From the NCBI GenBank assembly GCA_951406725.2, contig OX597819.1:33790001-33854000 (forward strand): a stretch of DNA of 64,000 bases. Direction: 5' to 3'. The notes below the pieces were generated by a model. The model was not told the DNA's origin and ran no database searches. It saw nothing but the letters and a program-made list of their open reading frames with translations. The position numbers and the translations under genes were made by a program. Shown here piece after piece: positions 1-46,090 of this stretch. The stretch's first letter is position 1. Every line of letters starts with the position of its first letter. The DNA is from Octopus vulgaris (taxonomy: Eukaryota).

Positions 1-990
1 TATCTGTGGTTTTGCTTGGCTTCATGGGGATTCTTCTCAAGCACAACATAATGCCGAAGATCATGGCCATTGCCTCCATGAGGCTGAACCCTTAAAAGGA
101 GCTCAGCCACTTTGCCTCCATGAAGCCTAACACTCAAAAGTAGGTTTTTACGTGCCACCAAAATGGGTGCCAGGAATGTGACACCAGCATCAGTGACGAC
201 TATGATTTCACTTGGCTTGACGGCACAGCATATCACCAACAGTCTCAGTCACTATTTATTGCCTCTGTGAGGCCCAACGTTTGAAGATCATGCTTCATCA
301 CCTCGTCCCATGTCTTCCTGGGTCTACCTCTATCACCGGTTCCTTTCACAGTTGGATATCGGCACTCCTTTACACAGCTGTCCTCATCCATATACATCAC
401 ATGACCACACCAACACAGTCGTTTCTCTTGCACACAACATCTGATGCCTCTTATTTCCAACTTTTCTCTCAAGATGCTTGCACTCTGACAAACATACACA
501 CTGACACTGCACACCCAGCGAAACATACTGGCTTCATTTCTTACAAGCTTACACATGTCCTTGGCTGTCACAGCCCATGTTTCACTGCCATGTAGCATAG
601 CTGTCAAGGCGGCAAGCTGGCAGAAACGTTAGCATGCCGGGCGAAATGCTTAGTGGTATTTCGTCTGCCGTTACGTTCTGAGTTCAAATTCCGCTGAGGC
701 TGACCTTGCCTTTCATCCTTTCGGGGTCGATAAATTAAGTATCATTTACGCACTGGGGTCGATGTAATCGACTTAATCCCTTTGTCTGTCCTTCTTTGTC
801 CCCTCTATGTTTAGTCCCTTGTGGGCAGTAAAGAAATAATGTAGCATAGCTATTCGCACACGAGCATCATGCAATCTGCCTTTCACTCTGAGAGAGAGGC
901 TCCTTGTTGCCAGTGGAAGCAAGAGCTCTCTGAACTTTGCTCAGCCTAACTTATTCTCACAGCAACACTCACAGTGCATCCACCTCCATA
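1..990 (-). mobile_element. RTE-clade LINE 3' remnant (ORF C-terminus plus part of 3' UTR), interrupted by a SINE
   Basis: ORF 245..607 has MLHGSETW...RGRPRKTW...DLQTLGL, typical of the RTE C-terminus. The frame resumes beyond the SINE (852-990: AKFRELL..LSLRVKGRL). Confidence 0.85.
608..838 (+). mobile_element. SINE family A (tRNA-like head)
   Basis: A/B-box-like head (GAGTTCAAATTCC); >15 homologous copies in the window; 13-bp TSD ATGTAGCATAGCT at 590-602 and 839-851. Confidence 0.9.
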
Positions 991-1546: not shown

Positions 1547-1844
1547 TTCAGACATTGACTTAGAGGCATTCTAGACTCCAGTAAATCCTTACTTTCACAT
1601 CATCTATTTTACTTCCCCTCATTCTCAGCTTCCTAGATCACCTCTGCAACACACACTCACTCACACATATACATACACTGGCTAATGCACACACACACAC
1701 ATACATATGCACACAAACATATTAAAATATTACAAGCAGTCTTTCATTCCAAACACTGTCTCACTGTCAAACACCAACCCCTTCTGTGTGCTCCCTATTC
1801 ACTACACCAAATATCACTTATACACACATGGTATTCTTCTGTCA

Positions 1845-1916
1845 GCGTCGGTGGTGTAATGGTTAGCATGGTTGCCTTCCAAGCAGTTGATCTGGGTTCG
1901 ACTCCCGGCCGACGCA
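1845..1916 (+). tRNA. tRNA-Gly-TCC: tRNA-Gly(TCC), gene or recent retrocopy
   Basis: 72-nt cloverleaf: acceptor GCGTCGG/CCGACGC, D arm GTGT/GCAT, anticodon arm GTTGC-CTTCCAA-GCAGT, T arm CTGGG-TTCGACT-CCCGG, discriminator A, no encoded CCA. T4 follows at 1926-1929. Confidence 0.9.
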
Positions 1917-1931
1917 GGCGATAGCTTTTAT

Positions 1932-2162
1932 GGTGGCGAGCTGGCAGAAACGTTAGCACGCCGGGCGAAATGCCTAGCGGTATTTCATCTGCCGTTACAT
2001 TGTGAGTTCAAATTCCGCCAAGGTTGACTTTGCCTTTCATCCTTTCGGGGTCGATTAAATAAGTACCAGTTACGCACTGGGGTCAATGTAATCGACTTAA
2101 TACCTATGTCTGTCCTTGTTTGTCCCCTCTATGTTTAGCCCCATGTGGGTAATAAAGAAATA
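1932..2162 (+). mobile_element. SINE family A
   Basis: Full monomer homologous to 608-838, lying 15 nt downstream of the tRNA. Confidence 0.9.
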
Positions 2163-2439
2163 GGTATTCTTCTGTTAAGAAATATATACCTCATTCTATA
2201 TTGCTCCACCACATCCAAAACTTCACCATACCAACACCGCTACAAAATTCAACCAAGATTGAACCTATATAACAACACCTTGTCACTAATTATTTTGTTA
2301 ATAACAACTTTCATTATTATTGAATTAAAAATCTCTCCATGGCCACCTAAGATAGTTTGTGACAGTGCATGTGCACATGACTATGTACTCACATGTGGAG
2401 ATGTAATGGCCTAGGAAAACAGTGAAAAATTAAATATAA

Positions 2440-20533: not shown

Positions 20534-20766
20534 ATTTCTTTACTACGCACAAGGGGCTAAACATAGAGGGGACAAACAAGGACAGACAAAGGGATTAAGT
20601 CGATTACATCGACCCCAGTGAGTAACTGGTACTTAATTTATCGACCCCGGAAGGATAAAAGGCAAAGTCGACCTCGGCGGAATTTGAACCCAGAACACGT
20701 AACGGCAGACAAAATACGGCTACGCATTTCGCCTGGCGTGCTAACGATTCTGCCAGCTCGCCGCCT
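20534..20766 (-). mobile_element. SINE family A
   Basis: Reverse-complement homology to family A; flanks ATGTATATA. Confidence 0.9.
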
Positions 20767-35059: not shown

Positions 35060-35765
35060 CAGTGCTACTCAAAGTGGTGGTCTACAGACCCGGTGACAAT
35101 CCATGAGCCATCAGCTGCTGGTATGCGGTGAGTTTCCAGAAAAGAAAGAAACATTATAAAATGCTTATGTAATATTGTATTATTTGTAAGGTGGTAAGCT
35201 GGCAGAAACGTTAGCACGCTGGATGAAATGCTTAGCAGTATTTCGTCTGTCGTTACGTTGTGAGTTCAAATTCCGCTGAGGTTGACTTTGCCTTTTATCC
35301 TTTCAGGGTCGATAAATTAAGTACCAGTTCCGGACTGGGGTCGATGTAATCGACTTAATACCTATGTCTGTCCTTGTTTGTCCCCTCTATGTTTAGCCCC
35401 TTGTGGGTAATAAAGAAATAGGTATCTCATTGGTCTTTACATTCTGAGTTCAAATTCTGCTGAGGTCAACTTTGCCTCTCATCCTTTCGGGGTAAATAAA
35501 TTAAGTACCAGTTTTGTACTGGGGTCATTCTAATCAACTATTTCTCTCCCCAAAAATTTCGAGCCTTGTGCCTAGAGTAGAAAAGAATATTGTATTATTT
35601 GTTTACAAAATAAATAAAAGATAAAAAAAATTGTCAACTTTTATTATATTTATTATATATCTTGTTACCAGTATAAATTGATATTACTAAGAAATATTAT
35701 CGGTCCATGGCACATTGGAATAAAAAACTGCCAGTATGCCACATCAGACAGTTTGAGAAGCACTG
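35060..35765 (+). mobile_element. hAT-Charlie-type MITE containing a dimeric SINE A
   Basis: TIRs CAGTGCTACTCAAA / TTTGAGAAGCACTG; TSD CCCTAGGT/ACCTAGGT; second copy at 57797-58508. Confidence 0.85.
35188..35585 (+). mobile_element. Dimeric SINE A
   Basis: Monomer plus a partial second monomer, inside one 17-bp TSD AATATTGTATTATTTGT (35171-35187, 35586-35602). Confidence 0.85.
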
Positions 35766-44844: not shown

Positions 44845-45200
44845 AGGGTATAGTGCCAAGGACTCCAAATTTGCCATCAAGATATAGGACAAGATACTGC
44901 AATAGCCTGGGCTTCAGAGGTCCACAGCTCTTCAATATCCTCCCAAAGGACCTGAGAGACCTTCATGGGGTGGATGTAGGTGTCTTCAAAATAAAGCTGG
45001 ACCTCTTACTATCAAGGGTCCCAGATGAGCCAACTTCGCGGCTGGAGGTACAGATGAGGGCAGTGGCATCAAACTCCCTCATGCACCAAATGTCAATTCC
45101 TAAAAAGCATTTGTGAAGTAAAATTATGTAGCAACACCAAATGGCGGTGCCCCAGCATGGCCACAGCTCGTGAGCTGAAACTAGATATAATATAAATAAA
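44845..45200 (+). mobile_element. CR1-like LINE 3' end (ORF2 C-terminus plus 3' UTR)
   Basis: NSLGFRGPQLFNILPKDLRDL..VFKIKLDLLLSRVPDEP; stop at 45116; short UTR and AT-rich tail. Confidence 0.8.
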
Positions 45201-45857
45201 TATATATATATATATATACATATATAGTGAAAAGGCGACAAAAAATACAACATACAGATGAGATAAAATGTAAACACAGAACCACTATTAGTTCGACACT
45301 CAGGAAATGGAAGGAGGGAGGGAGGATATGTCTTTAATATTTTGAGTATATACTCTTCTTCTGAAAAATAGGATTGAGATAGAGAGAAAAGAATGTAGTA
45401 GGAAAACAGGAGAAATAGAAATGCATGTATATCCAACCATTACAGTTGCAGATATCTGTACATATACAGACACACACTTGCAAATACATATAAAGAGAAT
45501 GGGGAAAATAAATGAAGAGTGATAGAGGTAAAGAGAGACAGAACTTAAAACATATTGTGAAAGGTAAGTAGATGAAATAAACGAAAACATCAGAAACTTG
45601 AAAAAGTGTACACATATATTCAAACACCCTTGCATTCCTATACTGCAGCAACAATAAAAACAACAACAAGGCACACTATATTTTGAAACATAAAGGAAGA
45701 ATCCAGTTTGAACAACAAGAGTCCAAATGAATTAGCATATACTAAATGTTGTTATTATTGATGTTGTAGAACACTGAAAGGATTTTGTTTCGTGTGGTAG
45801 ATTAGGTTTTATCCAAAAGTCTATCCTCACAACTGATTATCAACAGTGGTAGACCAA

Positions 45858-46090
45858 GGTGGCAAGCTGGCAGAAACGTTAGCACACTGGGCGAAATGCA
45901 TAGCCATATATATCATCTGCCGTTACGTTCTGAGTTCAAATTCTGCCAAGGTCGACTTTGCCTTTCATCCTTTCGGGGTCAATAAATTAAGTACCAGTTA
46001 TGCACGGGGGTCAATGTAATTGACTTAAACCATTTGTCTGTCCTTGTTTGTCCCCTCTGTGTTTAGCCCCTTGTGGGTAGTAAAGAAATA
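45858..46090 (+). mobile_element. SINE family A
   Basis: TSD GGTAGACCAA/GGTAAACCAA. Confidence 0.9.

What the first reader, a model, noticed from the sequence alone, without database searches (positions are those of the whole stretch)
1830..2177. tRNA-Gly + trailer + SINE bracketed by one target-site duplication: a tRNA-SINE chimera caught in the act
Seen: GGTATTCTTCTGTCA (1830-1844) ends exactly at tRNA nucleotide 1, and GGTATTCTTCTGTTA (2163-2177) follows the SINE A monomer (13 bp identical, 14/15 overall). Between them lie a complete tRNA-Gly without CCA, a 15-nt trailer containing only T4, and a full SINE. Known: T4 is a leaky Pol III terminator, and new SINE families arise by acquiring tRNA heads. 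Inference: a 5'-matured read-through (or template-switched) tRNA-SINE RNA was retroposed as one unit, so SINE tails may be dispersing intact tRNA genes. Caveat: the repeat also resembles the SINE dimer continuation (GGTATTTCGTCTG), which may simply have aided priming.
Basis: partly seen in the sequence, partly recalled or inferred. Interest (0 to 1): 0.75.

Follow-up and report, generated by a model that had tools for sequence, protein, structure and literature searches.

The report
Raw tRNA precursors captured by retroposons
An unprocessed tRNA transcript and a short repeat (SINE) from different places were pasted into this spot as one now-decaying piece, likely because the copying enzyme jumped from one RNA to the other; this genome holds dozens of such hybrids, with the head-plus-tail layout from which new SINE families are thought to arise, but this one never spread.

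Summary
The composite is real and came in as one insertion. A contig from another organism spans the empty site, with one copy of the repeat and no tRNA or SINE. Three details change. The duplication is 13 bp; the two extra bases (CA) match the leader of the source gene, so the RNA was not 5'-matured. It was not read-through: the source gene ends in T11 with no SINE behind it, and 20 independent copies of the same precursor are fused to several different SINE and LINE 3' parts. The junction is single-copy and the tRNA shows CpG decay, so it is neither a new SINE family nor gene dispersal. It is a U6/LINE-type chimeric retrocopy with a precursor tRNA as 5' partner. The class is common here: 68 of 72 tRNA-arm/LINE-tail hits are tRNA-like, none with CCA, some with introns; 22 of 30 U6 copies are fused the same way. 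A reverse-transcriptase template jump is the likely joining step (inferred). The scan noted one similar chimera in another genome (e1-7911741).

The parts
1830..1842 (+). Left copy of the 13-bp target-site duplication; its last 3 bases (TGT) also match the source leader (5' microhomology)
   Evidence: empty site in run X13 aligns to 1842 and goes on as window 2176+
1843..1844 (+). CA, the last two bases of the precursor-tRNA 5' leader
   Evidence: absent from the empty site; source gene L035 has TTGTCA before nucleotide 1
1845..1916 (+). tRNA-Gly(TCC) retrocopy, no CCA; three C-to-T changes at CpG against the source (1860, 1888, 1893)
1917..1929 (+). Source-gene 3' trailer GGCGATAGC plus T4, the copied oligo-U end of the Pol III transcript
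   Evidence: identical to the start of the trailer and T11 terminator of L035, G000:C19
1930..2162 (+).
   Evidence: 88-91% identical to other full-length copies in the window
2163..2175 (+). Right copy of the 13-bp target-site duplication; begins with GGTATT, which matches the SINE's tandem continuation (likely priming microhomology)

Best explanation
This is a single, decaying chimeric retrocopy: an unprocessed tRNA-Gly precursor from a gene on another contig and a full-length SINE were inserted together between 13-bp target duplications, likely joined when a LINE reverse transcriptase finished the SINE RNA and jumped onto the precursor's oligo-U 3' end. Steps: (1) target nicked and the SINE 3' end primed on a site starting GGTATT (duplication shown; priming by microhomology inferred); (2) SINE copied to its first base (shown); (3) jump to the U-tail of a nuclear precursor tRNA (inferred; that the two RNAs come from separate loci is shown); (4) precursor copied into its leader and joined at a 3-base microhomology (shown); (5) neutral CpG decay, no daughter copies (three CpG changes and single copy shown; neutrality inferred). 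The same process acts genome-wide on many tRNA genes and on U6, with several LINE and SINE partners.
For: Empty site with one 13-mer in organism E; both junctions present in organism B. Of 23 places with this tRNA end + trailer, one is the source (T11, no sense repeat behind), one a local rearranged duplicate, one a segmental duplicate. Of the other 20, 18 have a sense LINE/SINE match starting within 12 nt of the T run by BLAST and 2 more by eye; control: 6 of 933 T4+ runs in the window. Replicate: tRNA-Glu trailer, 7 places, 1 source, 5 fused to sense repeats of four kinds, 1 unassigned. Genome-wide pattern: 72 hits, 68 tRNA-like, 0 of 72 with CCA after nucleotide 73, 58 of 68 with T3 or more; intron-like inserts kept in at least 4 (L053, L070, L060, L075). 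11 of 14 hits with this SINE's head are clear precursor chimeras, 7 of 11 inside duplications of 8-16 bp read by eye. 22 of 30 U6 loci are fused to the same partners. RtcB ligation needs a 2',3'-cyclic phosphate and a 5'-OH (PMC6789731, passages); a precursor tRNA (3'-OH) and a SINE starting at +1 (5'-triphosphate) would offer neither (end chemistry from general knowledge). A non-LTR reverse transcriptase jumps end to end, pairs a 1-nt overhang with the acceptor's last base and uses pyrimidines very poorly for untemplated addition (PMC8594491, passages), which would favour U- or C-ended acceptors.
Against: The joining step cannot be read from DNA: RNA ligation before copying leaves the same structure. 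The empty site rests on one contig of one run; two other runs of organism E gave no contig. Exact duplications of 9 bp or more were found for only 8 of 20 Gly copies (swapped-pair control 11%), several in microsatellites. One tRNA-Asp with CCA fused to this SINE exists (L187), so precursors are not the only acceptors. L112 and L129 carry a trailer but no intron. The genome-wide patterns were built around one LINE tail and one SINE head, so they say nothing on partner proportions. Expression of the source gene and of this copy was not tested.
Confidence: 0.75

Rival explanations
1. RNA ligation first: the precursor tRNA and the SINE RNA were ligated in the nucleus (RtcB or another ligase), and the joined RNA was then retroposed, as shown for human U6/L1.
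For: Same final structure. The junction here is clean, T4 straight onto the SINE start. U6 is fused the same way in this genome. 43 of 68 LINE-tail junctions fall at the same two positions, which could mark a cleavage site giving a 5'-OH.
Against: RtcB fails with a 3'-OH donor or a 5'-triphosphate acceptor (PMC6789731); this SINE is full-length from its first base. Several junctions carry extra bases (L083, L086, L093). A solo LINE tail is truncated at the same point (L161), so the hot spot does not need ligation.
Confidence: 0.17
2. Pol III read-through at a source locus where the SINE lies behind a tRNA gene with a leaky T4 terminator.
For: Only T4 separates tRNA and SINE in the window. An unassembled source locus cannot be excluded.
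Against: The only candidate source has T11 and no SINE. 20 copies of the same precursor have several different partners and T runs of 4-19. Same result for tRNA-Glu.
Confidence: 0.04
3. Two separate events or a DNA-level event: a tRNA gene or pseudogene was there first and the SINE inserted behind it (target preference for tRNA terminators), the repeat being chance or a degraded SINE continuation.
For: The right repeat resembles the SINE continuation; GGTA follows 15 of 37 SINE ends.
Against: The empty site lacks both parts and has one repeat copy. The SINE has no duplication of its own. Copies share no upstream flank with the source beyond a few leader bases. Clustered tRNA-Gly genes on C7, C3 and C19 are not followed by such repeats.
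Confidence: 0.03
4. Member of a young, amplifying tRNA-Gly-headed dimeric SINE family.
For: The A and B boxes and the cloverleaf are still recognisable.
Against: One copy of the junction in 2.8 Gb. The internal T4 would likely stop Pol III. The only repeated chimera (5 copies, L125-127, L133, L134) shares its truncation point and flanks, which points to DNA duplication.
Confidence: 0.01

Closest known systems
U6/LINE and U6/SINE chimeric retropseudogenes (PMC4476161: passages and section 10 read)
   Same: Pol III RNA ending in a T run, fused in sense to a LINE or SINE 3' part inside one target duplication; reported with L1, L2 and RTE LINEs and with the SINEs Mon-1 and AnolisSINE2; 5'-truncated small-RNA parts and short duplications with stringent LINEs.
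   Different: The 5' partner here is a precursor tRNA with leader, trailer and sometimes intron, from many genes, in an invertebrate; that paper covers vertebrates and snRNAs.
Human tRNA/LINE-1 chimeras (PMC13174262: passages read; supplements not read)
   Same: tRNA sequence and retroposon inserted in one event with a target duplication.
   Different: There n = 21, mostly tRNA halves and mostly antisense (twin priming). Here whole or 5'-truncated precursors with intact 3' trailer, in sense.
Pre-tRNA retropseudogenes of Schmitz et al. 2004 (paper not held; known only from a passage in PMC4476161)
   Same: Unprocessed nuclear tRNA precursors serve as templates for LINE reverse transcriptase.
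   Different: As cited, these are L1-made retrocopies; fusion to a SINE or LINE tail is not mentioned in the passage seen.
Template-switch model of SINE birth and head addition (PMC5786205, PMC4494074, PMC4758252: passages read)
   Same: A small-RNA head is added to a LINE tail or an existing SINE; the tRNA + about 50-nt LINE tail chimeras here have that layout.
   Different: Those are amplified families; these are independent one-off copies, most keeping the terminator between head and tail.

Membership tests
Small-RNA / non-LTR chimeric retropseudogene (U6/L1 type) | Both parts inside one target-site duplication, absent together from the empty site | tested here: met
Small-RNA / non-LTR chimeric retropseudogene (U6/L1 type) | Small RNA 5', retroposon 3' with intact 3' end, same orientation | tested here: met
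Small-RNA / non-LTR chimeric retropseudogene (U6/L1 type) | The two parts are not neighbours at the source locus | tested here: met
   source L035 has T11 and no sense repeat; replicate source L182
Small-RNA / non-LTR chimeric retropseudogene (U6/L1 type) | Junction at the oligo-U 3' end of the Pol III RNA | tested here: met
   T4 here; T4-T19 in the 20 copies (the search pattern itself asked for the T run); 58 of 68 with T3+ in the search that did not
RtcB-ligated U6/L1 chimeras (PMC6789731) | 2',3'-cyclic phosphate on the 5' partner and 5'-OH on the 3' partner; RtcB dependence | not testable with these tools
   End chemistry is not visible in DNA; a precursor 3'-OH and a full-length SINE 5' end argue against (inference)
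Human-type tRNA/L1 chimeras (PMC13174262) | tRNA half, antisense to the LINE | tested here: not met
   full tRNA with leader and trailer, sense
SINE family (composite, tRNA-headed) | Many dispersed copies of the same unit from a master | tested here: not met
   single junction copy
SINE family (composite, tRNA-headed) | Pol III transcription of the whole unit | not tested
   no RNA run was laid; both read-laying runs went to the empty-site test
3' transduction / read-through retrocopy | A source locus carrying the same tRNA-SINE junction | tested here: not met
   none among 23 places
Functional tRNA gene | Conserved position, native flanks, no decay | tested here: not met
   absent in organism E; three CpG transitions; structure still scores 62.4 bits; transcription untested

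The most novel reading that the evidence does not exclude
In this octopus-like genome several LINE machineries routinely capture nascent, U-tailed precursor tRNAs (leader, intron and trailer still on) by an RtcB-independent template jump, and have left a hundred or more independent 'tRNA head + LINE tail' proto-SINEs. That is the step long proposed for SINE birth, seen as a population, with the retained terminator as the filter that keeps nearly all of them from spreading.
Probability: 0.45. Interest if true: 0.65.

Novelty: new variant of a known kind. Interest (0 to 1): 0.45.

Why it matters
The single locus is one dead retrocopy. The class behind it is more useful. (1) It gives a countable set of the intermediates that the template-switch model of SINE origin predicts, so one can ask why almost none amplify; 22 of 68 LINE-tail chimeras have fewer than four T in a row between head and tail and are the ones to test for read-through. 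(2) Precursor tRNA and full-length SINE ends should not suit RtcB, so these chimeras bear on the open question of ligation versus template jump. (3) Leaders, introns and trailers place the capture in the nucleus and record start and end points of tRNA transcripts. (4) Such copies inflate tRNA gene counts: 20 retrocopies came from one tRNA-Gly gene, and ARAGORN calls many of the chimeras as tRNA genes (14 of 30).

Tried and rejected
Automatic exact-match search for target duplications on the 20 Gly copies was noisy because of microsatellites; duplications for the SINE-A set were read by eye. Runs X11 and X14 (organism E) gave no contig on the left flank, and X7 and X10 gave no bridging contig: no information either way. 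Minimum-energy folding of the precursor was uninformative (z -1.07). No credible protein-coding frame near the locus: the 11 ORFs of 150 aa or more are mostly simple repeats. Four identical and one near-identical chimera on C27/C29 first looked like an amplified family; shared truncation point and flanks point to DNA duplication. L098 and L105 share a junction but differ in tail variant and flanks, so they are read as independent. L084 is a SINE inside another SINE with its own duplication, not a chimera; L085 and L096 are unclear; all three were dropped from the 14 before counting 11. Four of 72 hits (L097, L117, L119, L122) are not tRNAs and were dropped before counting 68. L166 was first read on the wrong strand and corrected. 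Schmitz 2004 and Kramerov and Vassetzky 2011 were not held. The family name of the SINE and the clades of the LINE partners were not tested; 'CR1/L2-like' and 'RTE-like' are recalled labels, as is 'octopus-like'.

Full report
Observation. The window lies at G000:C6:33790001-33854000 in a 2.8-Gb assembly; its repeats look octopus-like (recalled, and so labelled in earlier scan notes). ARAGORN and Rfam find one tRNA, Gly(TCC) at 1845-1916, without CCA. It is followed by GGCGATAGC, T4 (1926-1929) and a full-length SINE that is 88-91% identical to other full-length copies in the window. The 13-mer GGTATTCTTCTGT stands at 1830-1842 and 2163-2175. GGTA does follow 15 of 37 SINE ends held, which supports priming on targets that resemble the SINE's continuation.

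Empty site. Laying public contigs on 1600-2430 gave one 829-nt contig of organism E (run X13) whose pieces match 1717-1829 and 2163-2352 without a gap in the record. On 1716-1862 the same contig matches to 1842 and then continues with the sequence of window 2176 onward. So tRNA and SINE are absent together and one 13-mer remains; the flanks differ by about 5% (15 differences in 303 bases). Organism B has both junctions. Another sample of organism A has the insertion with the ancestral C at 1860 (X3). Two further runs of organism E gave no contig, so the empty site rests on one record. The insert is therefore 1843-2162, and CA at 1843-1844 is not target DNA.

Source gene. A 28-letter pattern over the tRNA end and trailer, up to 3 mismatches, gave 23 places (reversed control 0). 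One, L035 on C19, has the unmutated tRNA, leader ending TTGTCA, a T11 terminator and no sense repeat behind it. L045 is a local rearranged duplicate and L041 a segmental duplicate of L040; I dropped these three. The other 20 have unrelated upstream flanks. In 18 a sense LINE or SINE match starts within 12 nt of the T run, and in 2 (L036, L044) a short or degraded tail is seen by eye. Four of the five library entries were taken from these loci themselves; each also matches other loci. In the window only 6 of 933 T4+ runs are followed by the start of such a match. Partners include this SINE, two other SINEs, a LINE with the end of its ORF, bare LINE tails of about 50 nt and an RTE-like tail (clade labels recalled). 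T runs vary from 4 to 19. All 8 full-length copies keep the source's A at -1 and 5 of 8 keep CA; 12 of 20 are 5'-truncated. The window copy differs from the source by three C-to-T changes, all at CpG; over 18 copies without indels, CpG transitions were 24 in 291 CpG sites against 27 other changes in 883 sites. A replicate with a tRNA-Glu trailer gave 7 places: one source with a T6 terminator, five sense fusions to four kinds of partner (the SINE-A fusion keeps 6 leader bases), and one unassigned. Read-through and 5' maturation are both contradicted.

The wider class. A pattern of tRNA T-arm, a 10-40 nt gap and the LINE tail, with no T run required, gave 72 exact hits (reversed control 0). 68 are tRNA-like, from Glu, Asp, Leu, Gly, His, Lys, Ser, Asn, Arg and others; 0 of 72 have CCA after nucleotide 73; 46 of 68 have T4+ and 58 of 68 T3+; 43 of 68 join at the same two tail positions. 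Leu and Lys copies L053, L070, L060 and L075 keep intron-like inserts in the anticodon loop, while L112 and L129 have a trailer and no intron. For this SINE's head the pattern gave 14 hits: 11 clear precursor chimeras of six amino-acid types (Gly, Glu, His, Asp, Ser, Arg), 7 of them inside duplications of 8-16 bp read by eye, 2 unclear, 1 not a chimera. A search for the mature form found one tRNA-Asp with CCA fused to the SINE (L187); precursors dominate but are not the only acceptors. Of the 30 best U6 loci fetched (48 scored), 22 are fused in sense to the same partners and 8 are not. Exact patterns miss mutated copies, so all counts are lower bounds. No amplified chimera was found; the one five-copy case shares flanks and truncation point.

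Mechanism. Shown: one insertion; two RNAs from separate loci; precursor not processed at either end; SINE copied to its first base; no daughters. Inferred: how they were joined. I favour a template jump by the LINE reverse transcriptase onto the oligo-U end. RtcB ligation, shown for human U6/L1, needs a cyclic phosphate and a 5'-OH and failed with 3'-OH or 5'-triphosphate substrates (PMC6789731, passages); a precursor tRNA and a full-length Pol III SINE RNA would carry the wrong ends (general knowledge). A non-LTR reverse transcriptase jumps end to end through a one-base overhang and uses pyrimidines poorly for untemplated addition (PMC8594491, passages), which fits U-ended acceptors. DNA alone cannot settle this: about 0.93 for the one-event, two-locus, precursor reading and 0.75 with the jump included.

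Comparison. It meets every testable feature of U6/LINE-type chimeric retrocopies, which are known with L1, L2, RTE and two SINEs in vertebrates (PMC4476161, passages and section 10). Human tRNA/L1 chimeras are few, mostly halves and antisense (PMC13174262, passages). Pre-tRNA retrocopies are cited for humans (Schmitz 2004; not held; seen only as cited). Adding a small-RNA head by template switch is the standing model for SINE birth (passages of PMC5786205, PMC4494074, PMC4758252). PMC2912911 (passages) and PMC6962438 (passages) added background only; the latter reports about 17,000 tRNA-derived loci in giant squid and ascribes many to SINEs. Nine full-text searches (listings and abstract starts seen) returned no paper describing a genome-wide class of sense precursor-tRNA/LINE or SINE chimeras. 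Subscription papers, Repbase reports and all supplements (such as Table S3 of PMC13174262) were not seen and may hold such cases. The scan's own notes have one similar single chimera in another genome (e1-7911741), which I did not test.

Verdict. The locus alone is a dead retrocopy; the frequent capture of raw tRNA precursors by several retroposon families is a new variant of a known kind and gives testable material for SINE origin and for the ligation-versus-jump question. Interest 0.45.

Noticed in passing
L034 (G000:C14:46702845, minus strand): tRNA-Gly precursor + LINE tail + a second SINE with a doubled tail in one row: possible three-part chimera or later insertion; a 13-bp match to the left flank lies about 40 nt past the SINE end.
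   Followed up: partly
L043 (G000:C2:1634095): 5'-truncated tRNA-Gly chimera preceded by an inverted copy of part of the same tRNA, like a twin-priming inversion.
   Followed up: no
L007, L091, L081, L159: Short abortive repeats of the insert's 5' end (false starts) between the left duplication and the tRNA, or at the SINE head, suggesting repeated jumps by the reverse transcriptase.
   Followed up: no
L036 (G000:C28:25795901): tRNA precursor fused to only the last 12 nt of the SINE tail, inside a 14-bp duplication: a near-minimal retroposed unit.
   Followed up: partly
L187 (G000:C2:27806544): tRNA-Asp ending in CCA fused to the SINE head: the one candidate mature-tRNA chimera.
   Followed up: partly
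L060, L075: tRNA-Lys(TTT) copies with about 22-nt inserts in the anticodon loop, so some Lys genes of this genome appear to carry introns.
   Followed up: no
L169-L171 (G000:C7:17.73-17.75 Mb), L175-L176 (C3:61.07-61.09 Mb), L147-L151 (C1:139.42 Mb): Clusters of near-identical tRNA-Gly(TCC) genes with gene-specific trailers, and a tandem array of five variant U6 genes.
   Followed up: partly
L125-L127, L133, L134 (C27, C29): One 5'-truncated chimera with a T-arm-like remnant copied five times with its microsatellite flanks; the small RNA of origin was not identified.
   Followed up: partly
window 608-837, 20534-20765, 35190-35539, 45858-46089: Other full-length copies of the same SINE with their own 9-13 bp duplications; 35190-35539 is a head-to-tail dimer. 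A second SINE lies at about 2440-2835 and a LINE 3' end near 44963-45439 (minus).
   Followed up: partly
L089, L091, L088: Chimeras inserted into or beside oppositely oriented SINE copies at GGTA sites, consistent with SINE-tail microhomology steering insertion into other SINEs.
   Followed up: no
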